The notes under the pieces were generated by a model. The model saw only the letters and a program-made list of their open reading frames with translations. It did not search any database and was not told where the DNA came from. Shown piece after piece: positions 42,559-57,041 of a DNA stretch of 64,000 bases. Both the position numbers and the translations under genes were made by a program. This DNA comes from an uncultured Chloroflexia bacterium (GTDB lineage Bacteria > Chloroflexota > Limnocylindria > Limnocylindrales > CSP1-4). The stretch covers positions 1 through 64,000 of the forward strand of contig CAVQJC010000017.1 of the NCBI GenBank assembly GCA_963712745.1, in the 5' to 3' direction. Numbering within the stretch: position 1 is the stretch's first letter; every line of letters starts with the position of its first letter.

Positions 42559-44574
42559 TCAGGCGTTCTTCGTGTTGGTGGACCGCAGGACCGCCACGCC
42601 TTGACGCCCCAAGGGCAGCACACCGACCACCTGCTTGCTGGTAAGAAGATCGACATAGGCCGCCCCTTCGAGGTCCACGGTCACAGCTTCGTCCCCGCAG
42701 TTGACGACGAAGACATACGTCAGGTCATCGCTCTTCCTCTCGAGCAGCTCCACTCCAGGTGGGATGCCCGGAGGCCCGCTGACGCCGGCCTGAGCCAGCG
42801 CCAAACCGAGCACATGCTTCATGGCCAGCCTATCCGGAAGTGTGCCGAGGTACCAGGCGTGCCCTTCGCCCTTGGCGCACCGCGTGACCGCGGGAACGCC
42901 GCCCAGCGGCAAATCCTCGAAACTCGCGACGACCTCAGCGCTGTCGATCTCGATAGCCTCGCGCCAGATGGTCGCGCGATGCCGCGTGCCGTCCGCGAAG
43001 GCGATCCCGACATCGCCGCGCGGAACCGGCCACCACTCCCGCACGGTGATCCCGAGGAGTTCCCGGAGCTGCGTCGGATGGCCGCCGTGGTCCCGCTCGT
43101 AGTTGGGCCGGACGATGCCGCTGAATGGACCGATCACGACGACCCCGCCACGCTCCACGTAATGCGTGAGGTTCAGCACGGACGCATCGCTCAACAGGAA
43201 CAGGTTCGGCACGATTGCGACGCGATAAGAGGACAGATCGTCCTCGGGATGGCGCATGTCGACACCGAGGCTCGCGGACCGAAGCGGGCGGTACATGGCC
43301 AGGGCCAAGTCCCGGAACCGCATCCTGTCGGTGGGATGACCCTCGAACTCCAATGCCCACCAGCTTTCCCAGTCGACCAACAGCGCGACGTCCGCCGGCG
43401 CGCAGCGCGTTCCGGCGACCTCAGCGAGCCCCTCCAGGTCGGTCCCGAGCCGTACCGTGGCCGCCCAGCCCGGGGCCATCTCGCCCCCGGGCGGGAGCAT
43501 GGAGCTGTGGAGCATCTCGGGGCCGCTTCGCGACCCCCGCCACTGGAAGAACATGATGCCGTCGGCACCGGCGCCGACGGCCTGCAGGCTGCGCCGACGT
43601 ACCACGGCCGGGTCCACGGGCGGGTTCAGAGGGCGCCAGTCGACCGCGCTCGGTGCCTGCTCCATGACCAGCCAGGGCCGCCCGCCTCCTAGCGACCGCA
43701 TCAGATCGTAGGTGAAGGCAGTCTCCATGTCCGCATCCGGATCGAGCGGGTCGGGGTAGATGTCGCAGGAGATGGCGTCCTGTGCTCGTGCAAACCGCCA
43801 GTGGTCGAGCCCTGCGTTCGGCCGCATGAAGTTCGTGGTTGTGGGGATCCCTGGCGAGAGTCGGTGGAGGATGTTCCGCTCGCGCTCGAAGCACTCGAGC
43901 AACGCATCGGACGAGAAGCGGCGGTAGTCCAGCTTCAGGGACGGTCGCAAGGGCCCCGGTGCGGCACGCGGCGGCATGACCTCTGCCCACTCGCTGTAGC
44001 GACCACTCCAGACGTCGGTGTTCCAGGCCTCGTTCAATGCCTCGACAGAGCCATAGTTGACCTCCAGCCACGAACGGAAGTGCTCCGCCGAGCGGTCACA
44101 GAAGCACTGTTCGACGTGGTCTCCGTACTCGTTGCCGACGTGCCACATGGCCAGAGCCGGGTGTGAGCCGTAGCGCTCGGCCATGCGAGTGACGAGCTCC
44201 GCTACGGCGGCGGCGAAGTCTGGCGAGCTGGGGCACACATGCTGTCGGCTGCCGATCGACAGTCGCGTCCCGCGCTCGTCGACGGGCAGCGACCCCGGGT
44301 AGCGCAGCGAGAACCAGGGCGGCGGCGTCGCGGTCGCGGTAGCCAGGTCCACCGCGATCTCGCTCGCATGGAGCAGATCGAGCACCCGGTCGAGCCAGCC
44401 GAAGTCCCACGTCTCCGGTTCGGGCTGAAGGCGTGACCAGGCGAATACGCCCACGCTGACCATCGTCACGCTGGCCTCTCGCATCAAGCGAACATCCTCC
44501 AGCCACACGTGCTCGGGCCATTGCTCCGGGTTGTAGTCGCCCCCGTAGAGGATGCCTGGGCGCCGAATGCTCAT
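42559..44574 (-). CDS. GH42 beta-galactosidase
   Basis: YGGDYNPEQWP, WHVGNEY, CFC, MEQAP, FFQWR. Confidence 0.9.
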   Translation of the reverse strand: MSIRRPGILYGGDYNPEQWPEHVWLEDVRLMREASVTMVSVGVFAWSRLQPEPETWDFGWLDRVLDLLHASEIAVDLATATATPPPWFSLRYPGSLPVDERGTRLSIGSRQHVCPSSPDFAAAVAELVTRMAERYGSHPALAMWHVGNEYGDHVEQCFCDRSAEHFRSWLEVNYGSVEALNEAWNTDVWSGRYSEWAEVMPPRAAPGPLRPSLKLDYRRFSSDALLECFERERNILHRLSPGIPTTTNFMRPNAGLDHWRFARAQDAISCDIYPDPLDPDADMETAFTYDLMRSLGGGRPWLVMEQAPSAVDWRPLNPPVDPAVVRRRSLQAVGAGADGIMFFQWRGSRSGPEMLHSSMLPPGGEMAPGWAATVRLGTDLEGLAEVAGTRCAPADVALLVDWESWWALEFEGHPTDRMRFRDLALAMYRPLRSASLGVDMRHPEDDLSSYRVAIVPNLFLLSDASVLNLTHYVERGGVVVIGPFSGIVRPNYERDHGGHPTQLRELLGITVREWWPVPRGDVGIAFADGTRHRATIWREAIEIDSAEVVASFEDLPLGGVPAVTRCAKGEGHAWYLGTLPDRLAMKHVLGLALAQAGVSGPPGIPPGVELLERKSDDLTYVFVVNCGDEAVTVDLEGAAYVDLLTSKQVVGVLPLGRQGVAVLRSTNTKNA

Positions 44575-44744
44575 CGGTCACGAACCTTTCGACTTCGCAT
44601 GTTCATAGCCGGAATCTTCCGATATCGTAGCCAAGCTGGGCTCACGGCCTTATGATAGGTTTCCAAGTCCTAACACTAGCGCAAGACATGAGAGCCACGG
44701 CGCCGTCGCCGCCACCGAGCCAGACCGCAGAGCGAGGACATCGT

Positions 44745-46148
44745 ATGGACCAAGGATCCACGCCGCCCAGGACGCACCCGTACATCCCCAATTCTGAACC
44801 TCGGCAGAAGGCCTCCATGCTCGAGGCCGTGAGCGCGAGGTCGGTGGACGAGCTCTACGGGGAGATCCCAGCGCGCTTGCGGCTTGAGCGGCCGCTCGAC
44901 CTGCCAGCTCCATACAGGAGCGAAGCGGAGCTCGTCCGGCACGTGGGCGGACTGATCGACCGGAACCGCTCCACGCGCGAGGCCATCAGCTTCCTTGGCG
45001 CTGGCTGCTATGACCATCACGTGCCTGCGGTATGTGACGAAGTCGCCGGCCGGGCCGAGTTCCTCACGGCCTACGCCGGTGAGCCGTACGAGGACCATGG
45101 CCGTTTCCAGGCGCTGTTCGAGTACGCGTCCATGATGGGCGAGCTGTTGGAGATGGACGTCGTCAACGTGCCTGTATACGACGGCTACCAGGCGGCCGCG
45201 ACCGCGCTGCGCATGGCCGCGCGCGCGACTGGCCGGGACCACCTGGTCATCGCCAGCTCCATCAGTCCCGAGGAGCTCTCGAAGATCAGGGACTATGTTC
45301 GTCCCGACCTCGAGTTGGATGCCCTCGCCGTGGACGGTGCGACCGGCGAGGTGGACATTGCGGCCCTCGAGCGGATCATCAGCGACCGCACCGCGGCCGT
45401 GCTCATCAAACAGCCCTCCTATCTCGGCATCGTGGAGACACGCGGACGGGCGGTCGTGGAGCTCGCTCACGAGCGGGGAGCCATGGTCGTGGCCTCGGTC
45501 GACCCGTCCACACTCGGCGTCCTGGCCACGCCGGCCGCGACCGGTGTCGACATCGCCTGCGGGGACATCCAGCCGCTCGGCATACATCAGCACTTCGGGG
45601 GCGGCCATGCCGGCTTCATCGCCTCGGCGGATGACCCGCACATCGTGGAGCAGTACCCCTCGCGTCTGTTCGGCGTGGCACCGACGTCCGTGGAGGGCGA
45701 ATACGGCTTCGGCGACGTGGCCTACGAGCGCACCTCCTTCGCGGTACGGGAGGAGGGCAACGAGTGGGTCGGCACTGCCGCCGCGCTGTGGGGCATCACC
45801 GCTGGCGTCTATCTGGCGCTCATGGGCCCACAAGGTATGACCGAGCTGGGTGAACGCATGATGGCACGGACCCGCTATGCCATGGAGCGTCTGGCAGAGC
45901 TGCCAGGAGTGTCCGTCCCGTTCGCGGCCAGCCACCACATCAAGGAGTTCGTGGTCGACTTCGAGGGTACTGGTCACACCGTGGCCGACATCAACGCCAG
46001 CCTGCTGCGCCTCGGCATCTTCGGTGGCAGGGATCTGTCGACCGAAGCGGGCCAGTCCGGACAGCGCGCCCTCTACGCCGTGACCGAGATACGCAGCCAG
46101 TCAGACATCGACAGACTCGTCGAAGCCGTCGGGGAGGCCATCCGATGA
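44745..46148 (+). CDS. gcvPA: Glycine-decarboxylase P-protein subunit 1-like (divergent)
   Basis: HPYIPNS, FLGAGCYDH, QALFEY, QPLG..FGG, YAVTE. Confidence 0.8.
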   Translation: MDQGSTPPRTHPYIPNSEPRQKASMLEAVSARSVDELYGEIPARLRLERPLDLPAPYRSEAELVRHVGGLIDRNRSTREAISFLGAGCYDHHVPAVCDEVAGRAEFLTAYAGEPYEDHGRFQALFEYASMMGELLEMDVVNVPVYDGYQAAATALRMAARATGRDHLVIASSISPEELSKIRDYVRPDLELDALAVDGATGEVDIAALERIISDRTAAVLIKQPSYLGIVETRGRAVVELAHERGAMVVASVDPSTLGVLATPAATGVDIACGDIQPLGIHQHFGGGHAGFIASADDPHIVEQYPSRLFGVAPTSVEGEYGFGDVAYERTSFAVREEGNEWVGTAAALWGITAGVYLALMGPQGMTELGERMMARTRYAMERLAELPGVSVPFAASHHIKEFVVDFEGTGHTVADINASLLRLGIFGGRDLSTEAGQSGQRALYAVTEIRSQSDIDRLVEAVGEAIR

Positions 46149-47764
46149 CCACCGGGCAAGCCTCCTCGGCTATCGCCGCCAAGCCCATGCCTCGTCGCTT
46201 CCACCAGGCCAGCTGGGATGAACCCATCATCTTCGAGCTCTCGACGCCCGGTGCGCGTGGCGTCCTCCTACCAGAGTTGGAGGCAGGCATCGTCGAGCGC
46301 GTGGGTGACCCCGCTGCGGCCCTGCCGGCAGGTGTTCGCCGCGAGCGGCCGCCGGCCCTGCCCGAGCTGGCGCAGATCCACGTCGTCCGTCACTACGCGA
46401 GGTTGTCCCAGGAGACACTGGGAGTCGACCTCAACATCGACATCGGACAGGGCACGTGCACGATGAAGTACTCGCCCAAGGTCAACGACCAGCTCGTCCG
46501 GAGCCATCGCATCGCCGACGTGCATCCGCTTCAGGACGAGTCCACCGTGCAAGGGGCCCTAGGGATCATGTGGCACACCGAGCAGTTCCTGCGCGAGATC
46601 TCTGGCATGGACCGGGTCACCCTGCATCCGGGCGCGGGCAGTGCTGCCATCTGGACCAACGTGGCCATGATCCGCGCCTACCACGAGGCTCGCGGGGACG
46701 GGGCTCGCCGGGACGAGATCATCACGACCGCCTTCAGCCACCCCTCCAATGCCGCCTGTGCCAAGACGGCGGGGTACACGGTCATCACGCTCCAGCCGGA
46801 CCCGGTCACCGGGCGACCGACGCTCGAAGCGCTGCAGGCCGCGGTCTCGGAACGGACGGCGGCCTTGCTAATCACCAACCCCGAGGACACAGGCATCTTC
46901 AACCCCGACATCGACCGCTTCGTCGAGGTCGTCCATGCGGCCGGTGGCTTGAGTGCCTACGACCAGGCCAACGCCAATGGCATCCTGGGCATCACGCGTG
47001 CGCGCGATGCGGGCTTCGACCTCTGCCACTTCAACCTGCACAAGACGTTCTCGACGCCGCACGCGTGCGGCGGTCCGGCCGCGGGTGCATGCGGAGTGAC
47101 CATGGAGCTGGCGCCTTTCCTGCCCTCGCCGACCGTGGAGCGCGCGGGCGACCGCTTCTACCTGGATCGAGACCGGCCTCACAGCATCGGCTCCGTCCGT
47201 CCGTGGTACGGGGTCACGCCAAACATCGTGCGTGCCTATGCCTGGATCATGAACCTTGGTGCGGACGGCCTTCGAGAGGTCGCCGAGATCGCAGTCCTCA
47301 ACAACAACTATCTCCTGCAGCGAGTCCTCGCCATCAAGGGCGTCACAGCCCCCTACTCGCAGGGCAAGCGTCGCATCGAGCAGGTCCGCTACAGCTGGCA
47401 GGAGCTCGCCGAGGAGACCGATGTCCATTCGGAGGAGATGGCCGTCCGGATGGCTGACTTCGGCACCCACTACTGGACCAGCCACCACCCCTTCGTGGTG
47501 CCAGAGCCGATGACGCTGGAGCCCACCGAGGCATACTCACGAGCTGATCTCGATGAGTACGCTGCGATGTTGGGCGCCGTCGCGGGGGAGGCATACGAGA
47601 CACCGGAGGTCATCCATTCCGCGCCGCATCGTAGTACCGTCCATCAGGTCGAGCCGAGCTGGTTTGACGACCCTGCGCGATGGGCTGTGACGTGGCGAGC
47701 CTACAAGCGCAAGCACCTGAGAGCGATGCCGGCGCGCGTCGGTGCAGCGGGCCGCGATGGCTGA
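46145..47764 (+). CDS. gcvPB: Glycine-decarboxylase P-protein subunit 2-like (divergent), PLP lysine retained
   Basis: RHYARLSQ, CTMKYSP, ITNP, HFNLHKTFSTPH, LEPTE. Confidence 0.85.
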   Translation: MTTGQASSAIAAKPMPRRFHQASWDEPIIFELSTPGARGVLLPELEAGIVERVGDPAAALPAGVRRERPPALPELAQIHVVRHYARLSQETLGVDLNIDIGQGTCTMKYSPKVNDQLVRSHRIADVHPLQDESTVQGALGIMWHTEQFLREISGMDRVTLHPGAGSAAIWTNVAMIRAYHEARGDGARRDEIITTAFSHPSNAACAKTAGYTVITLQPDPVTGRPTLEALQAAVSERTAALLITNPEDTGIFNPDIDRFVEVVHAAGGLSAYDQANANGILGITRARDAGFDLCHFNLHKTFSTPHACGGPAAGACGVTMELAPFLPSPTVERAGDRFYLDRDRPHSIGSVRPWYGVTPNIVRAYAWIMNLGADGLREVAEIAVLNNNYLLQRVLAIKGVTAPYSQGKRRIEQVRYSWQELAEETDVHSEEMAVRMADFGTHYWTSHHPFVVPEPMTLEPTEAYSRADLDEYAAMLGAVAGEAYETPEVIHSAPHRSTVHQVEPSWFDDPARWAVTWRAYKRKHLRAMPARVGAAGRDG

Positions 47765-48920
47765 TGCTGTCGACCCCGCAGCTGAGGCCACGCTTGGGCT
47801 CCTGGTGAACCCCATCGCCGGCATGGGCGGCCGAGTCGGCCTGAAGGGCACTGACGGAGCGGCCGTGCTGGCCCAGGCGCGCGCACTCGGGGCCAAGCCC
47901 CTGGCCGGCGAGCGCGCGAGGTCCGCGCTGCAGGAGTTCTTGCGGACCTGGCCGACACACCGTCCACGGCCGCGCCTGGTCACCGCCGAGGGCCCGATGG
48001 GCCAGGCTGTCGCCGATGCCGCCGGGTTCCCCGCCGAGACCATCGGGGCCGTGACCACACCGACCAGCGCCGATGACACTCGCCGGGCCGCAGCGGCGCT
48101 GCGTGAGGCGGGGGCGGAGTTGCTGCTCTTCGCCGGAGGGGACGGCACGGCTCGCGACGTCAGCAGCGTGATCGACCGTGAGTTGCCGGCCCTCGGCATC
48201 CCGGCCGGCGTCAAGATCCAATCCGCTGCCTTCGCGGCGAGCCCTCGCGCGGGAGGCGCGCTGGCTGCCGCCTTCCTGGCCGGTCGCGAGCGGCAGACCG
48301 AGGACCGGGAGGTCGTCGATCTGGACGAGGCTGCCTACCGCGAGGGCCACATCCGACCGCGACTCCACGGCTACTTGCAGGTGCCTCGGGGACCAGCGGT
48401 CCAGTCGCGCAAGTCGCCGACACCCGCCTCGGAGCGCGAGGCCATGAACGGCATCGCCGGGGCTCTCCTCGAGTCGTACCGTGATGGCCATCGACTCGTC
48501 CTCGGTCCGGGGACCACCACACGCGCGGTGGCTGACCTGCTGGGCCTGCCGAAGACGCTGGTCGGGGTCGACGTGGTCGCTCGGACCGGTGACCGGGGAA
48601 AGCTTCTGGTCGCTGATGCGACCGAGACCGATCTGTTGCGGATCGCCAGGGAGGGGCCGGTCACCATCGTACTCACGCCCATCGGGGGGCAGGGTTTCCT
48701 GCTCGGTCGTGGCAATCAGCAGATCAGCCCTGCGGTCATCCACACCGCAGGCATCGACGCGATCACGATCGTGGCCACGCCCTCCAAGCTGGCCGCCCTA
48801 GCCGGCCGACCGCTTCTCGTCGACACGGGTGACGAGGAGCTTGATGCGCAGCTCAGCGGCCACGCGAGGGTGTTCAGTGGCCGCTACGACCGCGCCATCG
48901 TCGAAGTCGCGGCCGCATGA
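47757..48920 (+). CDS. ATP-NAD/AcoX kinase family protein
   Basis: VNPIAGMGGRVGLKGTDG, GGDGTARD, GIPAGVK, GQGFLLGRGNQQ. Confidence 0.85.
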   Translation: MADAVDPAAEATLGLLVNPIAGMGGRVGLKGTDGAAVLAQARALGAKPLAGERARSALQEFLRTWPTHRPRPRLVTAEGPMGQAVADAAGFPAETIGAVTTPTSADDTRRAAAALREAGAELLLFAGGDGTARDVSSVIDRELPALGIPAGVKIQSAAFAASPRAGGALAAAFLAGRERQTEDREVVDLDEAAYREGHIRPRLHGYLQVPRGPAVQSRKSPTPASEREAMNGIAGALLESYRDGHRLVLGPGTTTRAVADLLGLPKTLVGVDVVARTGDRGKLLVADATETDLLRIAREGPVTIVLTPIGGQGFLLGRGNQQISPAVIHTAGIDAITIVATPSKLAALAGRPLLVDTGDEELDAQLSGHARVFSGRYDRAIVEVAAA

Positions 48921-48972
48921 ACCCGCTCGACCACGATCGATCGACGTTGACCCCTACGGACAGGAGGACGAG

Positions 48973-49734: not shown

Positions 49735-49738
49735 GGCC

Positions 49739-50551: not shown

Positions 50552-50567
50552 TCCTCCCGGCCTGACG

Positions 50568-52409
50568 ATGCACCCTCGGCTCGCGGCCCTCGCTGATCTC
50601 GCAGACCTGCGTGGCATCCCGTTGTCGGAGCCGGGTGGGAGGTTGCTGCTTCGACTTGACGCCGATGGTCTTGGTCTCCAGGTTTCCTCGGCCGTCTACG
50701 AGCGATCCGCCGATGCGTGTGGACCCATCCGGAACATCCGCTTCCTCGATGTTTCCGGCGAAGCCCTGCCCATCCGCTTCCGATCCTGGCCCCACCGAGT
50801 CGACCTCGACATCACCGGTCGCACCGTTGCGGTCGCGTTCATGGAGCCGGACCTGCTCATGCTGCGACTATCCCGCGGTCGCTGGCGCCTCGAGCTGACG
50901 CTGGCGCTCGATCGCGGCCAGCACATCGCCAGCGTGGAGGTCGGGGAGGGCGGGATGTACGTGCGTGTCGATGAGGCCGACGGATCTCCCGGATACGCGT
51001 GGGCGACGAATGCCCGGATCGCTGACCACTCGTTTGACGATGATCCGGCCCACGATCCGATCGCTAGCGTGGAGCTCGATGCCGACTCAGAAGCCGCACT
51101 ATTCGTGGGCCGCGGGGACGCAGCCGAGCGAACTCGGCAGCCTTGCCGACCCGACCAGGTGCTTGACGCCGCAGCTAGCCGTTGGGCACGTCTGCTCGAT
51201 CGCGTGCCCTCGGTCGGGGCAGGCGAGTCTGAGCCGTTGCTTCGTGCAGCCTGGACGCTGGCCACCAACACGGTCCTACTCGCGCTGGATGAGCTCGCAT
51301 CTCCGGCGGTGGTGCCATCGAAGATGGGCTATGTAGCTCTGTGGCAATGGGATGCCTACTTCCACGCCATCGGGCTTCGTCACCTCGACCCGGGCATGGC
51401 GCGAGAACAGCTGCGTCTGGCGCTTCGCTGGCAGACGACCGACGGCATGCTCCCTGACCTCGTCCACGATGAAGGCGTGGTCGCGATGAGTGACGACATG
51501 GACGCCGCCGACCGGCAGCGCAGCCTCCTCCACATCGGACGCAAGTCGACCTCGGAGCAACAGGGATTCCTATCTGCGCCACTGACCAAGCCGCCACTGA
51601 CAGCGTGGGCTGCCTGGAAGCTATTCGAGATCGATCAGGGCAGCTCCTTTTTGGCGGAGGTGTACCCGCCCATCGTCCGCTCACACCGCTGGTGGTTCGA
51701 GCGTAGTCGGCCGCCGGGCTTCGACCTGCCGATCTACCTGCACCCATATTCATCAGGCATCGATGACAGCCCACTGTGGGACCTGGGCATGCCCGTGGAG
51801 ACACCGGACCTACCCTCGTATCTCGCGCTGCAGGCCGACCATCTGGCCATGATGGCGGCCGCGCTCGGCGACGACGCCGCGGCGTCAAGCTGGCGCTCGG
51901 AGGCGGCACGGACAGCGGACGCCCTCGTCGCCCGCCACTGGGACCCGGCGAGCGGTTCATTCCTTTCGTTCCATGACGGAGTGCCACTTCGAAGCGATAC
52001 CGCGGTCGGGCTGCTGCCCCTGGTCACGGGTCGCCTGCCCCACGACATAAGCGCACGCCTGGTAGAGACCCTCCTCGACCGGGAGCGGTTCTGGACGACC
52101 TACCCGGTGCCCTCGGTCGCGCTGCGTGACCCAGACTTCGACCCCACGCGGATGTGGCGCGGGCCATCGTGGCTCTTCGTCGACTACTTGCTCATCAATG
52201 GGCTGCGCCGCTCAGGATTCGGTGAGGCCGCGACCGTGCTTGCCGAGCGTACGACCCGGATGGTGGAGCAGGGCACCGGCATGCCCGAGTTCTACCATCC
52301 AGTCACTGGCGCAAGGCCAGAGATGGCTACCGCCACGTTCTCAGGGACGGCAGCGCTGTACCTTGACCTCGTCCTCGGCGCAGCCGCGTACGACTCGGCC
52401 GCTAACTAG
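50568..52409 (+). CDS. GH63/MGH1-like (alpha/alpha)6 glycoside hydrolase
   Basis: WQWDAYF, TKPPL, SGIDDSP, MWRGPSW, EFYHP. Confidence 0.8.
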   Translation: MHPRLAALADLADLRGIPLSEPGGRLLLRLDADGLGLQVSSAVYERSADACGPIRNIRFLDVSGEALPIRFRSWPHRVDLDITGRTVAVAFMEPDLLMLRLSRGRWRLELTLALDRGQHIASVEVGEGGMYVRVDEADGSPGYAWATNARIADHSFDDDPAHDPIASVELDADSEAALFVGRGDAAERTRQPCRPDQVLDAAASRWARLLDRVPSVGAGESEPLLRAAWTLATNTVLLALDELASPAVVPSKMGYVALWQWDAYFHAIGLRHLDPGMAREQLRLALRWQTTDGMLPDLVHDEGVVAMSDDMDAADRQRSLLHIGRKSTSEQQGFLSAPLTKPPLTAWAAWKLFEIDQGSSFLAEVYPPIVRSHRWWFERSRPPGFDLPIYLHPYSSGIDDSPLWDLGMPVETPDLPSYLALQADHLAMMAAALGDDAAASSWRSEAARTADALVARHWDPASGSFLSFHDGVPLRSDTAVGLLPLVTGRLPHDISARLVETLLDRERFWTTYPVPSVALRDPDFDPTRMWRGPSWLFVDYLLINGLRRSGFGEAATVLAERTTRMVEQGTGMPEFYHPVTGARPEMATATFSGTAALYLDLVLGAAAYDSAAN

Positions 52410-52498
52410 CGGCCACCCAGGCAGGATCGGGCCATGCTGATCACGATCGAGGGCTGTCCCAGCACGAAGACGATGAGCATGGGCACGCAGCTCACGGC
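52406..52498 (-). pseudogene. Orphan 3' end of a homologous ABC permease gene
   Basis: AVSCVPMLIVFVLGQPSIVISMARSCLGGR* aligns without gaps to 53569-53661 (AVSVVPMLIVFVLGQRWIVNSMAQSGLGGR*). Confidence 0.8.
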
Positions 52499-53552
52499 GC
52501 GATTACCGGACCATCCCGTCCGCCCTCATGGCGTCGTAATCCAGCGATCCGAGGCATCCGGGTAGGCTCGCGCTCCATGTCTGCCTGCACGAACCTGTGC
52601 ATCAGGGTTACTTTGAGATCTTGGGACGCTGGATCATCCCAGAGGTTTTGGTTCTCACCGGGGTCACGTTCCAGGTCAAAGAGCTCGCCGAACGGGCGCC
52701 CGCGCCAGATCGTGATCTTGTAGCGGTCGTCGATGTACGTCCGGACGTGCACCGCGGTGGGCTGATGGCGGTTCTCTACGATGACGTGGTCTCGGGCCTT
52801 CCCAGTCGACCCGCGCCAGCAGTCGAGCTGGCTACCCCCTGCATCAACCCGGGTATGTCGATACGGCAGGCCTCCAGGAACGTGGGGCTGGGATCCACCT
52901 GCTCTGGAGAGCTGAGATGGCTGGCGCCCGGTGAGATAGTCGCAGGTACGCAGCCCCAGCCAGCGGGAGTAGTGAAACTCCTCGGGCAGCGTCCAGCTGT
53001 GCTCGCGTGGCGGGACGCTGGGATCCTCGGGCCAGCCTTCGAAGTAGTCGCGCCAATCCGGGAGACCGTTCTCCTCCATCCAGATCGCGTAGTGCTGACC
53101 GACATGGGACTCGTCCGCCTGGTTTCGGAGGACCTCGACATGCTCGAACCCGTACCATGGCCCTTGGAATCCGCGCCCGAAATCGAGATCCCGCAAGGTC
53201 GGCTGGGCCTCCAGGGATTCGGAGCCCTCCGCCGACGCTAGTGGCTGGAAGTGGGCCTTGCCGAGCAGCGCCGTGCGATATCCATCGGCCCGAAGGATCT
53301 CTCCGACGGTGGGCCCGTCTTCGGGAAGCTTGACCCCATGGTCCAGCAATGGTGCGACGACGCGTCGAGTCCGGTGATCATGCTGGCACGCGCGGGCGAG
53401 CACATCGGGTTCGCGCAGTACCCACGCTCCAGTAGCACGCCTTCGTTCGCCAACCGATCCAGCGCTGGTGTCCGTATCCGTGGATTGTCCAGTCCGATGG
53501 TGTCGTAGTGCTGGTGGTCGCTGGTGATGAGCAGCAGGCTAGGCCGTACCAC
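52492..53552 (-). pseudogene. Sulfatase pseudogene (frameshifts and internal deletion)
   Basis: TPALDRLA, CSPARASMITG, GKAH, ELFDLERDPGE; central region missing. Confidence 0.8.
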
Positions 53553-53568
53553 ACCGGCTCTCCTCTCA

Positions 53569-54426
53569 CTACCGTCCGCCCAGTCCTGACTGGGCCATGC
53601 TGTTGACGATCCAGCGCTGGCCGAGAACGAAGACGATCAGCATCGGCACCACCGAGACGGCAGAAGCCGCCATCACCAATGCGTAGTTGAAGCCACCGTA
53701 CTGACCCTGGAACTGCGACAGCAGCAATGGGAGGGTGAACGTCTCCGTCGTGTTCAGGAAGATCAACGGCAGGAAGAAGCTGTTCCAGGAATCGAGTGCG
53801 ACGATGATGCCGAGGGCCCCCAGGGCCGGCCTCAGGTTGGGCAGCACGATGGAGAAGAACACGCGCCCACGGCTGGCGCCGTCGATGGTCGCAGCCTCCT
53901 CCAGCTCGATGGGGATGGCACGCACGAACTGTCGCACCAGGAAGACGGCGAAGGGGCTGCTCAGGGCCGCGGGCACGATCAACGCCAGGTGGGAATCGAT
54001 CCAGCCGATTCGGCTGAGCATCACGAAGAGCGGCACCACGATGACCTGCTTGGGCACCATCTGGGTGGCCAGGAAGCCGATGAACAGGACCCGACGCCCG
54101 GGGAATTCGAGACGCGCGAAGGCGTAGCCGGCCATCGCCGCGGTCAGCAGCGTGCCGAGGACGATGAGGGCCGTGATATAGAGGCTGTTCCAGTAGGCTT
54201 GCGGGAAGTCGACCGCGTTCCAGGCCTCGGTGAAGTTGTCGAGGACCCAGGGATCGGGCCAGATCGACAGCGGCCGCCGCAGGATCTGCTCGAGCGACTT
54301 GAACGACGTCAGGATCATGAAGACCAGCGGCCACGCCATCGCGAGGGCGAACACGGCCAGGCCGGCGTAGAGGGCGACGCGTCGCGGCTGGATGCGTCGC
54401 GGCGACGTCGTCTGCTGGGCGGTCAT
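53569..54426 (-). CDS. Carbohydrate ABC permease (MalG-like)
   Basis: IPIELEEAATIDGAS EAA loop; multiple TMs. Confidence 0.92.
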   Translation of the reverse strand: MTAQQTTSPRRIQPRRVALYAGLAVFALAMAWPLVFMILTSFKSLEQILRRPLSIWPDPWVLDNFTEAWNAVDFPQAYWNSLYITALIVLGTLLTAAMAGYAFARLEFPGRRVLFIGFLATQMVPKQVIVVPLFVMLSRIGWIDSHLALIVPAALSSPFAVFLVRQFVRAIPIELEEAATIDGASRGRVFFSIVLPNLRPALGALGIIVALDSWNSFFLPLIFLNTTETFTLPLLLSQFQGQYGGFNYALVMAASAVSVVPMLIVFVLGQRWIVNSMAQSGLGGR

Positions 54427-55385
54427 GACTCGTAGTGGACGAAGCGCTTCTGGCCGCTGAACTGGACCAGCGTGACTACGAGCGTCATGGCCAGGAGCAT
54501 CAACGCCGCGGCGCTAGACACGCCCAGCTCGAAGCGCTGGAACCCCAAGTCGAACACGTGGATCACGATCGTTCGGGCAGCGTCCTGCGGCCCGCCGTCG
54601 TCGGTCAGCACGTAGACCGAGTCGAACGTCTGCAGGGAGCTGATGGCGGCGACCACCGTGGCGAAGAAGATGGTCGGCGTGAGGAGCGGGATCTTGACTC
54701 GGAAGAGCGTGGTCCAGGCGTTCGAGCCATCGACCTTCGCGGCCTCGAGCACCTGCGGCGGAATGGTCTGGATGCCTGCCAGGAAGATGAGCACGTTGAG
54801 GCCGAGCGACGACCAGATGATCACGATGCACACCGCGATGAGGGTGTAGGTCGGGTCACCCAGCCAGTCGATCGGCTCGACGCCGGGAATCAGGGCCAGC
54901 AGCTGGCTCAGCGCCCCATCAGCTCGGAAGAGCTGCTGCCAGATCATGGCCACGGCCACGGAGCTGGTGACCACCGGCGCGACGACCAGGACCATGAATA
55001 CGGGACGGGCCTTGACCTCGTTAAGGCCCAGGGCCAGCGCGAGGGCGAGTCCGAGTCCGACGGGGATCGTGATGAGCCCGATGGCGACGGTGTTGACGAC
55101 CGAGTGGATGAAGCGGGGGTCGCTGAGCTGGTCGCGGAAGTTGTCCAGACCGACGAACTCCGCCGGGCTCAGGCCGTCCCACTCCAGGAAGGCGAGCGCC
55201 AGCCCGGCCAGCAGTGGGATGGCCACGAAGACCACGGTCCCGAACAGCTGTGGTGCGATGAGCGCCAGGCCCCAGCGCCGGTCCGTTGCCCGCCATGGCG
55301 CACCCGACCCCGACGACATCGACTCGCCATCAGGCACGCGATAGCCACGTCGCCAGCGTTGCCGGAGCAGCGGCCGCATGGTCAC
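54423..55385 (-). CDS. Carbohydrate ABC permease (MalF-like)
   Basis: FVGLDNF, IPPQVLEAAKVDGS. Confidence 0.92.
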   Translation of the reverse strand: MTMRPLLRQRWRRGYRVPDGESMSSGSGAPWRATDRRWGLALIAPQLFGTVVFVAIPLLAGLALAFLEWDGLSPAEFVGLDNFRDQLSDPRFIHSVVNTVAIGLITIPVGLGLALALALGLNEVKARPVFMVLVVAPVVTSSVAVAMIWQQLFRADGALSQLLALIPGVEPIDWLGDPTYTLIAVCIVIIWSSLGLNVLIFLAGIQTIPPQVLEAAKVDGSNAWTTLFRVKIPLLTPTIFFATVVAAISSLQTFDSVYVLTDDGGPQDAARTIVIHVFDLGFQRFELGVSSAAALMLLAMTLVVTLVQFSGQKRFVHYES

Positions 55386-55456
55386 CGTGGTTCATACCGA
55401 TGGCCGGGGATCATGTCCCCGGCCATCGGCGTTTTCCCTCGTGCGGAAGGATCGAG

Positions 55457-56755
55457 CTATTCGGCGTCGGCGATCAGGCCCTCGATGGTGGCGACGGTGT
55501 CGTCGACGCTTGCTCGCCCCTCGTACATCTCCTGCATGGCAGCGCTGATGTCACCGGACAGGCCGGGCACGCGTGCCTCACTGGGGAAGTTGGCGTAGCC
55601 CATGTCGCGGACGGAGATGAACTCCTGGGCGCTCGCGGGGTAGCCCTCGAGCACGATGTCGTCCGCGCCCTTGATGGACGGGACAGCGTTGCCACCACCA
55701 CTCAATCGGAATCGCTGACCGTCGGCCGAGAGGAACTCCTCGTAGAAGTCCCAGTCGGCATCGGCGTTGTCGGTGTTCTTGTTGATGCCCAGGTAGGCAG
55801 CCGCGACGCCCGTGGGGCGGGCGGCACCGTCTGGCGTGGGCCAGCGCACGATGTCGTAGCTGTCACCCTCACCCAGCGATTCCACCAGGCCGATGGTGTA
55901 TCGACCCTGCGAGAAGAATCCGGCGTCGTGGTTAACGAACGTGGGGTCGGCTCCGGGTTCGGGCATGGTGTCCGCCAGGGCGAACTGACCGGCCTGGAAG
56001 CGCTTGGCGAGCTCCTCCAGCGCGGCGATGGAGTTCGGGTCGTCCGGCAGCACGAAGTTGCCGTCCTCGTCGTAGACCAGGCCGTCGTTGGCAGTCACCC
56101 AGCTCCAGTGAGTCGCCCAGTAGTTCCAAAAGATCGCCCCGAGTTTGCCGGCCGCGTCCAGAGCGTCGATCATCTCGAGGAACTTGTCGGTGGTCCACTC
56201 ATCGTTGGCTGCCAGCTCCGCCGGATCTTCCGTGATGCCCGCCGCATCCAGGGCCTGCTTGTCGTACCACAGCATGTCCGGATTGCTGTCGACGGGGATG
56301 CCAAAGATCTGGCCGTCCTTGGCCGCCGCGCCGTACAGCGTGTCGATGAAGTCGTCCGCCGAGATCTGGCTGTCCTCAGCCGCGAGGAAGTCGTTGAGCG
56401 GGAGCAGCACCCCCGAGTCGACGAACTTGCCGATGTTGTCGTCACCGATGTAGAAGAGGTCTGGCGCGGTTCCGGAGATCAGCTGGGCCAGCAGCTTGGA
56501 GTGGTAGTCCGAGTACGACGGCACGGGCTGTAGGCTCACGTCGATCTCGGGATGGCGCTCCATGAAGGCCGCGTTGAACTCGTCGAATCGACCGAGCTCG
56601 TCCGGGTTGCCCCAAGTCGACCAGACGACCTCGGTCTTGTCCTGCGCCAACACAGCGCCCGGGAGCGCCGTTCCGACCAGTGCGACGGCTCCGACCAGCG
56701 CTAGCGTACCGGCCGCCAAGTGACTCTTGCGATTCCGATGCATATCTCGCCCCAT
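55457..56755 (-). CDS. Carbohydrate ABC substrate-binding protein
   Basis: Signal peptide; GTAPDLF, YGIP-like motif, LWYDK. Confidence 0.9.
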   Translation of the reverse strand: MGRDMHRNRKSHLAAGTLALVGAVALVGTALPGAVLAQDKTEVVWSTWGNPDELGRFDEFNAAFMERHPEIDVSLQPVPSYSDYHSKLLAQLISGTAPDLFYIGDDNIGKFVDSGVLLPLNDFLAAEDSQISADDFIDTLYGAAAKDGQIFGIPVDSNPDMLWYDKQALDAAGITEDPAELAANDEWTTDKFLEMIDALDAAGKLGAIFWNYWATHWSWVTANDGLVYDEDGNFVLPDDPNSIAALEELAKRFQAGQFALADTMPEPGADPTFVNHDAGFFSQGRYTIGLVESLGEGDSYDIVRWPTPDGAARPTGVAAAYLGINKNTDNADADWDFYEEFLSADGQRFRLSGGGNAVPSIKGADDIVLEGYPASAQEFISVRDMGYANFPSEARVPGLSGDISAAMQEMYEGRASVDDTVATIEGLIADAE

Positions 56756-57041
56756 CCTCCCACGTGCTTACGATTGTGAAACCTCAACGAGTGCCAAGAT
56801 TGTGAAAGGTCCACCGATGCTTGTCAATAGGAACGACCAATGGGCCCCAAGCGTTTCGACCCGGAAAGTCAGGTCAGTGAATTGCGCCGACAGGGCCGGG
56901 CTCCGGCTCGAGCTTGACCCTGCTTCAGGTCCGCTTCGGCCTCGGGGTCTGCTCGATGAGGCAAACCATCCGCCAAGTCTCGCGGGTAGTCAGGATCTGC
57001 GCGGCTCAGCCGACCTCGTCAAGTGCTCCGGCCTCGAAGTT

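What the first reader, a model, noticed from the sequence alone, without database searches (positions are those of the whole stretch)
42559..56755. Uncharacterised sugar-conjugate catabolic pathway built on a repurposed glycine-decarboxylase P protein
Seen: gcvPA-gcvPB-kinase-SDR-deoR-GH63 form an operon with GH42, a sulfatase and a sugar ABC importer, and no gcvT, gcvH or lpd in the window. The PLP lysine (LHKTF) is kept, but canonical motifs are replaced: YTPYQPE becomes YAGEPYED, REQHIRREKATSNICT becomes RTSFAVREEGNEWVGT, and PHGGGGP becomes PHACGGP. Known: canonical GcvP needs H, T and L proteins, and AcoX-family genes accompany the lipoyl-dependent acetoin system. Inference: a PLP decarboxylase for a non-glycine amino acid released from a glycoside, such as a glycosylated amino acid or amino-sugar acid, with downstream kinase and SDR steps.
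Basis: partly seen in the sequence, partly recalled or inferred. Interest (0 to 1): 0.72.

Follow-up and report, generated by a model that had tools for sequence, protein, structure and literature searches.

The report
Glycine-decarboxylase look-alike in a glycoside-breakdown cluster
Two genes that databases would label as the glycine-cleavage P protein belong instead to a separate, widely exchanged enzyme family that travels with a kinase and a dehydrogenase, and here it sits in a sugar-conjugate uptake and breakdown cluster, so it probably degrades a hydroxylated amine other than glycine.

Summary
The genes and the altered motifs are real. The "sulfatase" is only a truncated remnant. GH42 and the ABC genes are separate transcription units, so this is a cluster rather than one operon. 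The GcvPA/PB-like pair is a second copy: the genome has gcvT-gcvH-gcvP on another contig. The pair belongs to a sharply separate clade: 63-81% identity within the clade against 29-45% to canonical GcvPB, split by a 100%-supported long branch. The PLP-binding residues are kept, but 29 + 29 invariant positions differ from the canonical state. No gcvH or gcvT lies within 10 kb of the pair in any of 80 related loci. The clade travels with an SDR (56 of 58 loci) and an NAD-kinase/DAG-kinase-fold protein (52 of 58) across bacterial and archaeal phyla. In Actinomycetota and in this window it also carries GH42, GH63 and a sugar ABC importer. Elsewhere it sits next to methylamine methyltransferases, deacylases and ornithine-, lysine- or hydroxyproline-type genes. 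My best reading is inferred, not shown. An imported Glc/Gal glycoside of a hydroxylated primary amine, with glycosylated 5-hydroxylysine as leading candidate, is deglycosylated, phosphorylated, cleaved by the PLP enzyme without H protein, and finished by the SDR. I found no paper on this module.

The parts
42559..44574 (-). GH42 beta-galactosidase, cytoplasmic (no signal peptide), divergent from the PA operon
   Evidence: Pfam Glyco_hydro_42 E 9.8e-137 plus the M and C domains. PDB beta-galactosidases up to 582 bits. N-terminus. Present in 30 of 31 Actinomycetota loci that hold the clade.
44575..44744 (.). Divergent control region between GH42 and PA, with a weak sigma70-like match at 44628-44656 (+)
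   Evidence: 9 of 12 promoter positions. No riboswitch found: Rfam gathering scan of the whole window.
44745..46148 (+). GcvPA-like subunit of the non-canonical clade. The ORF is open from 44652; the likely start is 44745.
   Evidence: PF02347 at 192 bits, against 375-592 bits for canonical copies. NCBIfam GcvPA 466.7 bits, above the 364 cut-off. 29 clade-invariant switches, including the ...AYAGEPYeDHGRFQ... segment.
46145..47764 (+). GcvPB-like PLP-binding subunit of the non-canonical clade; its start overlaps the PA stop
   Evidence: NCBIfam GcvPB 575 bits, above the 441 cut-off. 332 bits to T. thermophilus P-protein beta. PLP Lys (NLHKTF), Asp and His are kept; 29 clade-invariant switches. 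Trees.
47742..48920 (+). NAD-kinase/diacylglycerol-kinase-fold protein (NADKl), a putative small-molecule hydroxyl kinase
   Evidence: Pfam NAD_kinase, NAD_kinase_C and DAGK_cat. No NCBIfam model matches. The GGDGT motif is invariant in 43 homologues. A housekeeping NadK lies elsewhere at C4. AF2 model pLDDT 91.5. The N-terminal half resembles NADK, DgkB and SphK: Z 9-11, tied with unrelated Rossmann-like folds.
48973..49734 (+). Classical SDR dehydrogenase. The ORF is open from 48829; the likely start is 48973.
   Evidence: Pfam adh_short_C2 E 1.1e-67. NCBIfam 'glucose 1-dehydrogenase' subfamily 256 bits, above the 215 cut-off, but many SDR models score similarly. Start. Present in 56 of 58 related loci.
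49739..50551 (+). DeoR-family regulator, presumed repressor of the cluster
   Evidence: Pfam HTH_DeoR + DeoRC. The best NCBIfam hits AgaR and GlpR are below their cut-offs. Orthologues at 52-62% identity stand beside the module in other Chloroflexia loci.
50517..52409 (+). GH63-type (alpha/alpha)6 glycosidase, cytoplasmic
   Evidence: Pfam MGH1-like_GH E 1e-75 and Glyco_hydro_63. Nearest solved relatives are TTHA0978, YgjK and the mycobacterial glucosylglycerate hydrolase, E 1e-24 to 1e-17. Present in 29 of 31 Actinomycetota loci.
52492..53403 (-). Sulfatase-like remnant; probably not part of the system
   Evidence: Only C-terminal sulfatase similarity. No N-terminal catalytic segment. No match in 80 related loci.
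53569..55385 (-). Two CUT1 ABC permeases (54423-55385 and 53569-54426)
   Evidence: Pfam BPD_transp_1. 47-64% identical orthologues in the Actinomycetota loci.
55457..56755 (-). CUT1 solute-binding protein with a signal peptide
   Evidence: Pfam SBP_bac_1. N-terminus. 44-61% identical orthologues in Actinomycetota loci. Only distant solved relatives.
56774..56827 (-). Promoter-like site of the ABC operon (TTGACA-17-CACAAT), overlapped by two exact TTGTGAAA copies 26 bp apart; candidate operator
   Evidence: The two copies are the only exact ones in the window, but the word with 1 mismatch is not enriched (5 found, 5.4 expected).

Best explanation
[quoted passage not shown] It belongs to a separate, horizontally exchanged clade of two-subunit PLP enzymes. 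This clade travels with a classical SDR and usually with an NAD-kinase/DAG-kinase-fold kinase.

In this window the module is wired to an import-and-deglycosylation set: a CUT1 ABC importer, a cytoplasmic GH63 and a cytoplasmic GH42, and a DeoR regulator.

Most likely course (inferred):
1. A Glc/Gal glycoside of a hydroxylated primary amine is imported whole. The best candidate is glucosyl-galactosyl- or galactosyl-5-hydroxylysine.
2. GH63 removes the alpha-glucose and GH42 removes the beta-galactose.
3. The kinase phosphorylates the freed hydroxyl.
4. The PLP enzyme, working without H protein, eliminates phosphate and ammonia at the neighbouring aminomethyl carbon. This gives an aldehyde (2-aminoadipate semialdehyde for hydroxylysine).
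5. The SDR oxidises or reduces that aldehyde.
6. A phosphorylated intermediate would be the DeoR effector.

Shown: a separate clade, a second copy, conserved module and contexts, kept PLP residues, altered active-site and surface motifs.
Inferred: the substrate, the reaction type and the order of steps.

My odds: non-glycine function 0.85; kinase-then-PLP-elimination logic about 0.4; hydroxylysine glycoside as the substrate here about 0.2.
For: Second copy and separate clade:
- The own genome has gcvT-gcvH-gcvP on C1 and lpd on C14.
- 4 of 5 other clade-bearing genomes clearly hold a canonical gcvP too. The fifth has a second, partial GDC-P hit.
- Identity is bimodal: PB 63-81% against 29-45%, PA 54-75% against 30-39%.
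- Of 120 other genomes sampled from the phylum, 102 have a GcvPB-type match, all at 45% identity or less.
- 30 clade rows and 35 canonical rows are split by a branch of 1.21 with SH support 100. The same split holds with the plasmid sister group added.

Sequence features:
- 29 invariant switches in PA and 29 in PB, while the PLP Lys, Asp and His are kept.
- The two basic residues that a docking model places in salt bridges to H protein (human R373 and K376; PMC7259800, passages) align to a variable residue (Val in this window) and a Glu.
- No GcvH or GcvT homologue in the window or in 80 loci with up to 10 kb of flank on each side.

Module conservation:
- PA 57 of 58, SDR 56 of 58, kinase 52 of 58.
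- In 88 dereplicated groups: SDR 67, kinase 59.
- A sister clade on plasmids has the order kinase-PA-PB, with SDRs, APC permeases, acyl-CoA synthetases, an M20 deacylase and a primary-amine oxidase nearby.

Kinase linked to PLP enzymes that use phosphorylated substrates:
- A 39%-identical homologue overlaps a HisC/CobD-like gene.
- One homologue is joined to a class-III aminotransferase segment.

Glycoside link:
- GH42 30 of 31 and GH63 29 of 31 in Actinomycetota loci, in two different gene orders with divergent GH63 and ABC genes.
- GH1 follows the SDR in 3 groups.
- The SBP is secreted and the GHs are cytoplasmic.

Basic- and hydroxy-amino-acid theme in other loci:
- OAT-type aminotransferase 7 groups, LYS9-type saccharopine dehydrogenase 6, M20 deacylase 5, proline-racemase family 4, OCD 3, aldehyde dehydrogenase 3.
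- A hydroxyproline dehydratase HypD homologue (1111 bits to 6VXC) stands beside the module in L024.
Against: - The pair scores above NCBIfam's curated GcvPA and GcvPB cut-offs, and its ancestry is a decarboxylase. No GDC-P family member is known to me to act as a phospho-lyase (recalled).
- The kinase is missing near 6 of 58 loci with enough flank, and in the Bacillus sp. F19 plasmid cluster. The SDR is almost always there. So SDR plus PLP enzyme may be the true core, and the kinase may act elsewhere in the path.
- 8 of 88 groups carry MttB-family methyltransferases, some with corrinoid proteins. This points to methylated amines and is not explained by hydroxylysine glycosides. Subclades may differ in substrate.
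- The GH63 here is only distantly related to YgjK (E 6e-21). The binding protein gives no ligand clue.
- Sugar-acid-type neighbours occur: GntR-FCD regulators, a KdgT permease, DHDPS-family genes and an ILVD/EDD dehydratase.
- The canonical set in the trees is mostly from one phylum plus two actinobacteria, so a placement next to some unsampled canonical lineage is not excluded.
Confidence: 0.4

Rival explanations
1. Amino-sugar or amino-sugar-acid route. The glycosidases release an amino sugar. The SDR acts as a sugar 1-dehydrogenase and makes a 2-amino-2-deoxy-aldonate. The PLP enzyme acts on this alpha-amino acid as a dehydratase/ammonia-lyase and gives a 2-keto-3-deoxy sugar acid. The kinase phosphorylates the acid or its precursor, and can be dispensed with where a non-phosphorylative aldolase is used.
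For: - The SDR passes the NCBIfam 'glucose 1-dehydrogenase' subfamily cut-off. The SDRs in the Bacillus F19 and Natronosalvus clusters are annotated the same way.
- A KdgT-type 2-keto-3-deoxygluconate permease is in the Bacillus F19 cluster.
- DHDPS-family (aldolase-type) genes with sugar ABC systems are in the Paracoccus and Antarctobacter clusters.
- GntR-FCD regulators occur in 17 of 88 groups, and DeoR is here.
- An ILVD/EDD dehydratase lies next to L033.
- This route explains why the kinase is optional.
- RidA stands beside the module in L036.
Against: - I know of no natural Gal-beta/Glc-alpha glycoside of a free amino sugar or amino-sugar acid that would need both GH42 and GH63 (recalled).
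- Many SDR models score alike, so the 'glucose 1-dehydrogenase' label is weak.
- No KDPG/KDG aldolase or lactonase is in the window cluster.
- The ornithine, lysine and proline-type neighbours and the MttB genes are not explained.
Confidence: 0.15
2. The pair is still an alpha-decarboxylase but for a non-glycine amino acid released from the glycoside. This could be an O-phosphorylated hydroxy-amino acid, as with CobD acting on threonine phosphate. The kinase and SDR serve before or after it.
For: - Its ancestry is a decarboxylase. PB is 332 bits to T. thermophilus P-protein, and the PLP residues are kept.
- The kinase family also pairs with a HisC/CobD-like gene. CobD is a phospho-amino-acid decarboxylase, and TIGR01140 scores 144 bits, below its cut-off.
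Against: - A decarboxylated (phospho)amine would need further enzymes (phosphatase, amine oxidase or transaminase) that are not in the conserved core.
- No CO2-related or amine-handling gene is conserved with the module in the window-type clusters.
Confidence: 0.15
3. A true second glycine decarboxylase that works with the distant GcvH, GcvT and Lpd. For example, it could dispose of glycine made from betaines or peptides. Its place beside sugar genes would then be incidental.
For: - It scores above the curated GcvPA/GcvPB cut-offs.
- MttB-family genes most like glycine-betaine methyltransferase (202 bits to 2QNE/9YCE), with corrinoid proteins, stand beside the module in 8 of 88 groups.
- The canonical gcvP of this genome shows a change of frame near C1:34315.
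Against: - 29 + 29 invariant departures from the canonical state at conserved motifs.
- The modelled H-protein contact residues are lost.
- No H or T genes lie near it in 80 loci.
- Canonical copies coexist with it in at least 4 of 5 genomes checked.
- It is tightly coupled to a kinase and an SDR, which have no role in glycine cleavage.
- Its distribution is patchy and crosses phyla.
Confidence: 0.07
4. The same kinase, PLP-lyase and SDR logic, but the shared substrate is another vicinal amino alcohol that carries a carboxylate. One candidate is 4-amino-3-hydroxybutyrate, made by demethylating carnitine. Another is ring-opened pyrroline-4-hydroxy-2-carboxylate from hydroxyproline, whose natural forms include betaines, O-glycosides and peptides.
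For: - MttB-family genes (8 groups), corrinoid proteins (3) and MtaA-like genes (3).
- A proline-racemase-family gene sits between the two SDRs in 4 groups. Its best NCBIfam hit is trans-3-hydroxy-L-proline dehydratase, below the cut-off.
- HypD stands beside the module in L024.
- OCD and DHDPS-family genes are in the haloarchaeal and alphaproteobacterial clusters.
- CoA-transferases and aldehyde dehydrogenases are nearby.
Against: - The self-contained window-type and Actinomycetota-type cluster has no epimerase or oxidase to open hydroxyproline.
- I know of no glycosides of carnitine or 4-amino-3-hydroxybutyrate (recalled).
- Hydroxyproline O-glycans do not call for an alpha-glucosidase (recalled).
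Confidence: 0.15

Closest known systems
Glycine cleavage system P protein, split form (GcvPA/GcvPB; T. thermophilus 1WYT)
   Same: Same fold and two-subunit layout. PB scores 332 bits and PA 201 bits to the T. thermophilus chains. The PLP lysine, aspartate and histidine are kept. It passes the NCBIfam cut-offs.
   Different: It forms a separate clade with 58 invariant switches at conserved motifs. It has no H or T partner genes nearby. It coexists with a canonical copy. It is coupled to a kinase and an SDR.
Animal hydroxylysine kinase plus 5-phosphohydroxylysine phospho-lyase, and the related ethanolamine and aminopropanol kinase/phospho-lyase pairs (recalled from the literature; no paper read here beyond search listings)
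   Same: The proposed logic is the same. A kinase activates the hydroxyl next to an aminomethyl group, then a fold-type-I PLP enzyme eliminates phosphate and ammonia to give an aldehyde.
   Different: The proteins are not homologous. Here the kinase has the NAD-kinase/DAG-kinase fold rather than the aminoglycoside-phosphotransferase type. The PLP enzyme is GDC-P family rather than a class-III aminotransferase. The activity is untested.
AcoX of acetoin operons (acoXABC)
   Same: Both are NAD-kinase-like proteins of unknown function encoded next to a cofactor-dependent C-C cleaving enzyme. AcoX is called 'a protein of unknown function' in PMC10107126 (passages).
   Different: Homology to AcoX was not tested here. 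The partner is a PLP enzyme, not a thiamine/lipoyl complex.
E. coli YgjK and Thermus/Mycobacterium GH63 hydrolases
   Same: The GH63 (alpha/alpha)6 catalytic domain. YgjK binds Glc-alpha-1,2-Gal. That is the disaccharide of collagen hydroxylysine, a link I recall rather than read.
   Different: The relation is only distant (E 1e-24 to 1e-17). It scores below the NCBIfam equivalog cut-offs for glucosylglycerate hydrolase and YgjK. Its specificity is unknown.
Plasmid-borne kinase-gcvPA-gcvPB clusters (Rhodococcus qingshengii RQCS_2, R. jostii RHA1 NC_008269.1, Paracoccus aminophilus pAMI4, Gemmobacter fulvus p3, Sphingomonas, Antarctobacter)
   Same: A sister clade of the same non-canonical superclade (SH 100). 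It shares 21-27 of 52-55 clade-specific states and only 4-9 canonical ones. The same kinase family is adjacent, and SDRs are nearby.
   Different: PB is 44-47% identical. The gene order is kinase-PA-PB. The contexts are amine and amino-acid permeases, acyl-CoA synthetases and amine oxidase rather than GH42 and GH63. All are annotated as GcvPA/GcvPB.

Membership tests
Canonical glycine-cleavage P protein (GcvPA/GcvPB) | Profile score above the curated family cut-off | tested here: met
   NF001696 466.7 bits (cut-off 364). NF003346 575.2 bits (cut-off 441).
Canonical glycine-cleavage P protein (GcvPA/GcvPB) | PLP-binding lysine and the fold-type-I Asp and His in the beta subunit | tested here: met
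   NLHKTF, YDQAN and SHPSN are conserved in 87 clade sequences.
Canonical glycine-cleavage P protein (GcvPA/GcvPB) | Conserved canonical motifs of the alpha subunit (YTP.Q.E.SQG, REQhIRRE.AtSNICT) and of the beta glycine-rich loop (PHGGGGPG) | tested here: not met
   They are replaced by clade-invariant AYAGEPYeDHGRFQ, RTSFA.REeGKEWVGT and PH.cGGPaaGA.
Canonical glycine-cleavage P protein (GcvPA/GcvPB) | Groups with canonical GcvP in a tree | tested here: not met
   It is split from 35 canonical rows by a branch of 1.21 with SH support 100; the result is the same. Caveat: the canonical rows are mostly from one phylum, the method is FastTree only, and 57 further clade rows were left out.
Canonical glycine-cleavage P protein (GcvPA/GcvPB) | Genomic or functional partnership with H, T and L proteins | tested here: not met
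   No GcvH or GcvT homologue in the window or in 80 loci. The genome's gcvTHP is on C1 and lpd is on C14. Use of H protein in trans cannot be tested here.
Canonical glycine-cleavage P protein (GcvPA/GcvPB) | Glycine decarboxylation with aminomethyl transfer to lipoyl-H protein | not testable with these tools
   This needs an enzyme assay.
NAD kinase (NadK/PpnK) | NAD_kinase N- and C-terminal domains and the GGDG motif | tested here: met
   PF01513 E 6.5e-16 and PF20143 E 7.9e-15. GGDGT is invariant.
NAD kinase (NadK/PpnK) | Being the genome's NAD kinase orthologue | tested here: not met
   No NCBIfam model matches. A better NAD_kinase_C match lies at C4:255100-255474 (92.7 against 57.9 bits). 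That copy is not found by this protein at E 0.001.
NAD kinase / DAG kinase / sphingosine kinase structural superfamily | Shared fold of the catalytic N-terminal domain | tested here: inconclusive
   Foldseek gives partial hits to DAGK-domain proteins (4WER prob 1.00, 165 columns), DgkB and SphK1. VIA Z is 10.8 for NADK 7QVS and 10.4 for DgkB, but these are tied with binding proteins of similar Rossmann-like fold. The C-terminal half was barely tested.
AcoX family | Sequence homology to AcoX of acoXABC operons | not tested
   No AcoX sequence was at hand. I only saw the statement that AcoX is of unknown function.
Amino-alcohol kinase / phospho-lyase systems (hydroxylysine, ethanolamine, aminopropanol) | Kinase of the aminoglycoside-phosphotransferase type and lyase of the class-III aminotransferase family | tested here: not met
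   Pfam finds NAD_kinase/DAGK_cat and GDC-P instead. The claim is 'may work like', not 'is a member'.
GH42 beta-galactosidase | GH42 catalytic, trimerisation and C-terminal domains | tested here: met
   and 582 bits to 9TA3.
GH63 | GH63/MGH1-like (alpha/alpha)6 catalytic domain | tested here: met
   PF22422 E 1e-75 and PF03200 E 5.9e-11. The specific equivalogs are not met: 108 bits against 550, and 97 against 625.
CUT1 sugar ABC importer | SBP_bac_1 binding protein, two BPD_transp_1 permeases and an ATPase | tested here: inconclusive
   The SBP and both permeases are present. No ATPase gene is in the cluster. I did not search the genome for a shared one.

The most novel reading that the evidence does not exclude
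The glycine-decarboxylase fold has been re-used as an H-protein-independent lyase for phosphorylated vicinal amino alcohols, fed by a new NAD-kinase-fold amino-alcohol kinase. In this window the module forms the first prokaryotic pathway for collagen-type hydroxylysine glycosides (Glc-Gal-Hyl or Gal-Hyl). This pathway would be non-homologous to the animal hydroxylysine kinase/phospho-lyase route. Hundreds of 'GcvPA/GcvPB' annotations in Chloroflexota, Actinomycetota, Acidobacteriota and Bathyarchaeia would then be wrong.
Probability: 0.2. Interest if true: 0.85.

Novelty: new variant of a known kind. Interest (0 to 1): 0.7.

Why it matters
- **Annotation.** The clade passes the curated GcvPA/GcvPB thresholds and is annotated as such in every annotated record I looked at. 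Genome-based claims of glycine cleavage or of the reductive glycine pathway in Chloroflexota, Bathyarchaeia, Acidobacteriota and actinomycetes may therefore count a different enzyme.
- **Enzymology.** A conserved triad of PLP enzyme, kinase and SDR spans at least 88 dereplicated lineages in bacteria and archaea. My ten literature searches found no paper on it. This points to an undescribed PLP reaction and an undescribed substrate class for the NAD-kinase fold.
- **Ecology.** The changing front ends of the module are glycosidases, methylamine methyltransferases, deacylases and amino-acid importers. They suggest one nitrogen-containing hydroxylated compound that reaches microbes in several chemical forms.
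- **Testability.** Cultured carriers exist (Arthrobacter, Nonomuraea, Streptosporangium, Actinomadura, Rhodococcus, Paracoccus), so the question can be tested directly.

Tried and rejected
- **Glycine riboswitch or other RNA control upstream of PA.** The Rfam gathering scan of the window found only a c-di-GMP-II-GAG riboswitch elsewhere.
- **Solved-structure relatives by sequence.** None for the kinase. None for two unknown ORFs that precede PA in other loci.
- **Structure of the kinase.** The third worked. Foldseek and VIA gave only partial or middling matches. No fold-based function can be drawn from them.
- **ESM Atlas.** It returned only 'ATP-NAD kinase family' clusters (one search failed because the tool was busy).
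- **Rosetta-stone search for the kinase**. 6 longer proteins were found. One is joined to a truncated class-III aminotransferase and one to a GcvPA-like piece. Either could be a gene-calling read-through, so I treat them as adjacency evidence only.
- **Papers on P-protein structure.** The T. thermophilus paper was not held under the two ids I tried. The active-site and tunnel residues could therefore not be mapped. Only the docking-model contacts of PMC7259800 were used.
- **Literature searches**. None turned up a paper on this module, on a GcvP paralogue with a kinase, or on bacterial hydroxylysine-glycoside catabolism. Subscription journals and supplements were not searched.
- **TTGTGAAA as operator.** Two exact copies lie in the ABC promoter, but the word is not enriched in the window. 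I did not pursue it.
- **Maximum-likelihood tree with 122 rows.** It did not finish in the time limit. FastTree on 65 and 71 rows was used instead.

Full report
**What is in the window**

- On the minus strand, a GH42 beta-galactosidase (42559-44574).
- On the plus strand, closely spaced or overlapping: GcvPA-like, GcvPB-like, a protein with NAD_kinase, NAD_kinase_C and DAGK_cat domains, a classical SDR, a DeoR regulator and a GH63/MGH1-like hydrolase. The PA stop overlaps the PB start at 46145-46148.
- Converging from the other side: a CUT1 binding protein, two permeases and a 303-residue ORF.

Details and corrections:
- The 303-residue ORF matches only the C-terminal part of sulfatases and lacks their N-terminal catalytic part. 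It has no counterpart in related loci. I treat it as a remnant outside the system.
- The likely true starts are ATG 44745 for PA and ATG 48973 for the SDR.
- The binding protein has a signal peptide and the two glycosidases do not. So the substrate would be imported whole and hydrolysed inside the cell.
- No glycine riboswitch or other known RNA element precedes PA.

**Is it the glycine-cleavage P protein?**

By profile score it would be named so: 466.7 and 575.2 bits, above the NCBIfam cut-offs of 364 and 441. Every other test separates it.

- *Second copy.* The genome has gcvT, gcvH and a fused gcvP together on contig C1, and lpd on C14. That gcvP shows a change of frame near C1:34315. I cannot tell this apart from an assembly error. 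A sulfatase at 11410-13804 of the window is also split in two ORFs.
- *Other genomes.* I checked five other genomes that hold a close relative of the window pair. Four hold a canonical gcvP scoring 375-592 bits on PF02347, against 176-211 bits for the look-alike. The fifth, a 1.7-Mb archaeal MAG, has a second, partial hit.
- *Bimodal identity*. PB is 63-81% identical to members of its own clade and 29-45% to everything else collected. PA is 54-75% against 30-39%.
- *Rarity in the phylum.* Of 120 other genomes sampled from the same phylum, 102 have a GcvPB-type match, and all are at 45% identity or less. None of those searched carries the clade, including two genomes of the same family.
- *Trees.* A FastTree of 30 clade rows and 35 canonical rows splits the groups by a branch of 1.21 changes per site with SH support 100. 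The 30 clade rows were hand-picked for taxonomic spread out of 87 distinct ones. Inside the clade, archaea, Calditrichota and Acidobacteriota nest among Chloroflexota on short branches, which indicates horizontal spread.
- *Caveats on the trees.* The canonical rows come mostly from one phylum plus two actinobacteria. The method is FastTree. A larger maximum-likelihood run did not finish.

**What changed in the protein**

I aligned 73 clade and 29 canonical PA sequences, and 87 clade and 36 canonical PB sequences.
- The PLP lysine and the fold-type-I aspartate and histidine are kept.
- 29 positions in PA and 29 in PB are invariant in the clade (95% or more) and differ from a conserved canonical residue (85% or more).
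- A published docking model of human GLDC with H protein places salt bridges at R373 and K376 (PMC7259800, passages read). By the offset of 43 between chain index and human numbering, these align to a variable residue (Val here) and a Glu in the clade. This rests on a model and is a hint only.
- No GcvH or GcvT homologue lies in the window or within up to 10 kb of the pair in any of the 80 genome loci.

**The conserved module**

Genome scan: 445 of 597 pattern matches encode relatives, and the best 80 were kept. Of these, 58 loci have at least 1.6 kb upstream and 3.5 kb downstream of PB. Counts among those 58:

| Gene | Loci |
|---|---|
| PA | 57 of 58 |
| Orthologous SDR | 56 of 58 |
| Kinase-like gene | 52 of 58 |

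The kinase-like gene is absent near L013, L016, L034, L036, L038 and L040.

Metagenome scan: 516 of 596 pattern matches encode relatives, and the best 80 were kept. Together the two scans give 142 loci with a PB ORF, which fall into 88 groups at 88% PB identity. The SDR is present in 67 groups and the kinase in 59.

The kinase-like protein:
- It is not the housekeeping NAD kinase, which lies on contig C4.
- It has the invariant GGDGT motif.
- It matches no NCBIfam model and no solved structure by sequence.
- A confident AF2 model (pLDDT 91.5) resembles NAD kinases, DgkB-type and sphingosine kinases only in its N-terminal half. Those scores are tied with unrelated Rossmann-like proteins.

A deeper sister group:
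- It was found on plasmids of Rhodococcus, Paracoccus aminophilus, Gemmobacter, Sphingomonas and Antarctobacter.
- PB is 44-47% identical and the kinase 38-44% identical to the window's proteins. The gene order is kinase-PA-PB.
- All are annotated GcvPA/GcvPB.
- It joins the window's clade with SH support 100. It shares 21-27 of 52-55 clade-specific states and only 4-9 canonical ones.

**Contexts**

*Actinomycetota.* GH42 is present in 30 of 31 loci and GH63 in 29 of 31. A CUT1 ABC system accompanies them. They occur in two different gene orders with divergent GH63 (27-31% identity) and ABC genes. The regulator is usually a GntR-FCD protein.

*The window.* It has the Actinomycetota-type set, although its PB groups with Chloroflexia.

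*Other Chloroflexia.* These loci carry a Liv-type ABC importer, an FmdA/AmdA-type amidase, an orthologous DeoR and a second SDR.

*Anaerobic lineages and metagenomes.* Neighbours counted per 88 groups:

| Neighbour | Groups |
|---|---|
| MttB-family methyltransferases | 8 |
| Class-III (ornithine-type) aminotransferases | 7 |
| LYS9-type saccharopine dehydrogenases | 6 |
| M20 deacylases | 5 |
| AsnC regulators | 5 |
| Proline-racemase-family genes, placed between the two SDRs | 4 |
| Corrinoid proteins | 3 |
| MtaA-like genes | 3 |
| OCD | 3 |
| Aldehyde dehydrogenases | 3 |
| Amidases | 3 |
| GH1 | 3 |

Further single observations:
- The MttB representative scores 202 bits to glycine-betaine methyltransferases.
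- In L024 a close homologue of the glycyl-radical trans-4-hydroxy-L-proline dehydratase (1111 bits to 6VXC), with its activase, stands beside the module.
- In Peptoclostridium acidaminophilum a 39%-identical kinase homologue overlaps a HisC/CobD-like PLP enzyme gene.
- One database protein joins the kinase to a class-III aminotransferase segment.
- Only cluster representatives were scanned with Pfam. ORFs were called by a simple heuristic, so these counts are lower bounds.

**How it most likely works**

The steady partners are a PLP enzyme, an alcohol/carbonyl dehydrogenase and a hydroxyl kinase. The front ends change:
- glycosidases, which imply that the compound has a hydroxyl;
- methyltransferases of the quaternary-amine family, which imply an amine that can be methylated;
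- deacylases and amidases, which imply an amine or carboxyl that can be acylated or amidated;
- amino-acid-type importers and carboxylate-sensing regulators.

This fits a hydroxylated primary amine, probably one that carries a carboxylate.

The kinase family keeps company with PLP enzymes whose known relatives act on phosphorylated amino compounds (HisC, CobD; I also recall phospho-lyases in the class-III fold). I therefore favour the order kinase first, then PLP-dependent elimination of phosphate and ammonia, then the SDR acting on the aldehyde. I recall this as the logic of the animal hydroxylysine and ethanolamine routes and of the mycobacterial aminopropanol route. Here it would be done by unrelated proteins.

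For this window and the Actinomycetota, the pair of a GH63 alpha-glucosidase-type enzyme and a GH42 beta-galactosidase points to a Glc-Gal conjugate:
- The same preprint lists a glucosylgalactosylhydroxylysine glucosidase activity, EC 3.2.1.107.
- The collagen-type glycan Glc-alpha-1,2-Gal-beta-O-hydroxylysine (recalled) is the one natural compound I know that joins both sugars to a hydroxylated primary amine.
- Its product after phospho-lyase action would be 2-aminoadipate semialdehyde. That fits the LYS9-type, aminotransferase, OCD and aldehyde-dehydrogenase neighbours seen elsewhere.

I put about 0.85 on a non-glycine role, 0.4 on the kinase-lyase logic and 0.2 on hydroxylysine glycosides.

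**What speaks against it, and the rivals**

- The kinase is not universal, whereas the SDR nearly is. SDR plus PLP enzyme may therefore be the core.
- An amino-sugar-acid route stays open: SDR as sugar 1-dehydrogenase, PLP enzyme as ammonia-lyase, kinase optional. It has some support: the 'glucose 1-dehydrogenase' label, a KdgT permease, DHDPS-family genes, FCD regulators and an EDD-type dehydratase.
- The MttB and corrinoid neighbours could mean that glycine made from betaines is the substrate after all. They could also mean that the shared compound is a demethylated betaine, such as 4-amino-3-hydroxybutyrate from carnitine, or a hydroxyproline-derived amine.
- None of this can be settled without assays.

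**Novelty**

Ten full-text searches found no paper on this module. AcoX, the nearest named NAD-kinase-like accessory protein, is still described as of unknown function (PMC10107126, passages). I did not test whether the window's kinase belongs to the AcoX family.

I rate the finding a new variant of a known kind. The fold is known and the annotation is wrong. The conserved module has an undescribed function and is spread over at least 88 lineages of bacteria and archaea.

Noticed in passing
window 38849-38951 (-): A c-di-GMP-II-GAG riboswitch aptamer (Rfam RF03169, 47.5 bits, gathering score 40) lies directly upstream of a small SRPBCC/polyketide-cyclase-like gene at 38394-38837 (-).
   Followed up: no
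window 11410-11985 and 12023-13804 (+): A sulfatase is split into two ORFs: Pfam Sulfatase positions 1-118, then 139-300. This is either a broken gene or an assembly indel. It bears on how far frame changes in this assembly can be trusted.
   Followed up: no
G000:C1 about 34315 (locus L001/L003): The genome's canonical fused gcvP matches the GDC-P profile in two different frames that meet near C1:34315. This is an apparent frameshift or a sequencing error.
   Followed up: partly
window 56774-56781 and 56800-56807: Two exact TTGTGAAA copies, 26 bp apart, overlap the promoter-like site of the ABC operon. They may be an operator, but the word is not statistically enriched.
   Followed up: partly
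L184, L188, L189, L228, L196, L200, L201, L203, L208, L220 (metagenome loci): MttB-family (non-pyrrolysine type, not verified) methyltransferases stand directly beside the GcvPA/PB-like module. There are up to four copies, with corrinoid proteins and a GntR-FCD regulator. I found this association in no paper.
   Followed up: partly
L024 457-3874 (-): A close homologue of the glycyl-radical trans-4-hydroxy-L-proline dehydratase HypD (1111 bits to 6VXC), with a radical-SAM activase, lies next to an ornithine-aminotransferase, M20, PA, PB operon in a Chloroflexi MAG.
   Followed up: partly
L150 9992-12068 (Peptoclostridium acidaminophilum plasmid EAL2_808p): A homologue of the kinase-like protein (39% identity) overlaps a HisC/CobD-like PLP enzyme gene. 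It may be a candidate non-orthologous kinase for a phosphorylated amino compound.
   Followed up: partly
L146-L152 (plasmids of Rhodococcus, Paracoccus aminophilus, Gemmobacter, Sphingomonas, Antarctobacter; also R. jostii RHA1 NC_008269.1): A sister clade of kinase-gcvPA-gcvPB clusters lies on large plasmids. All are annotated as glycine dehydrogenase. They sit next to APC permeases, SDRs or alcohol dehydrogenases, acyl-CoA synthetases and a primary-amine oxidase.
   Followed up: partly
window 41438-42211 (-): An ORF with a Gly_rich_2 domain (E 7.8e-7), just outside the cluster. Function unknown.
   Followed up: no
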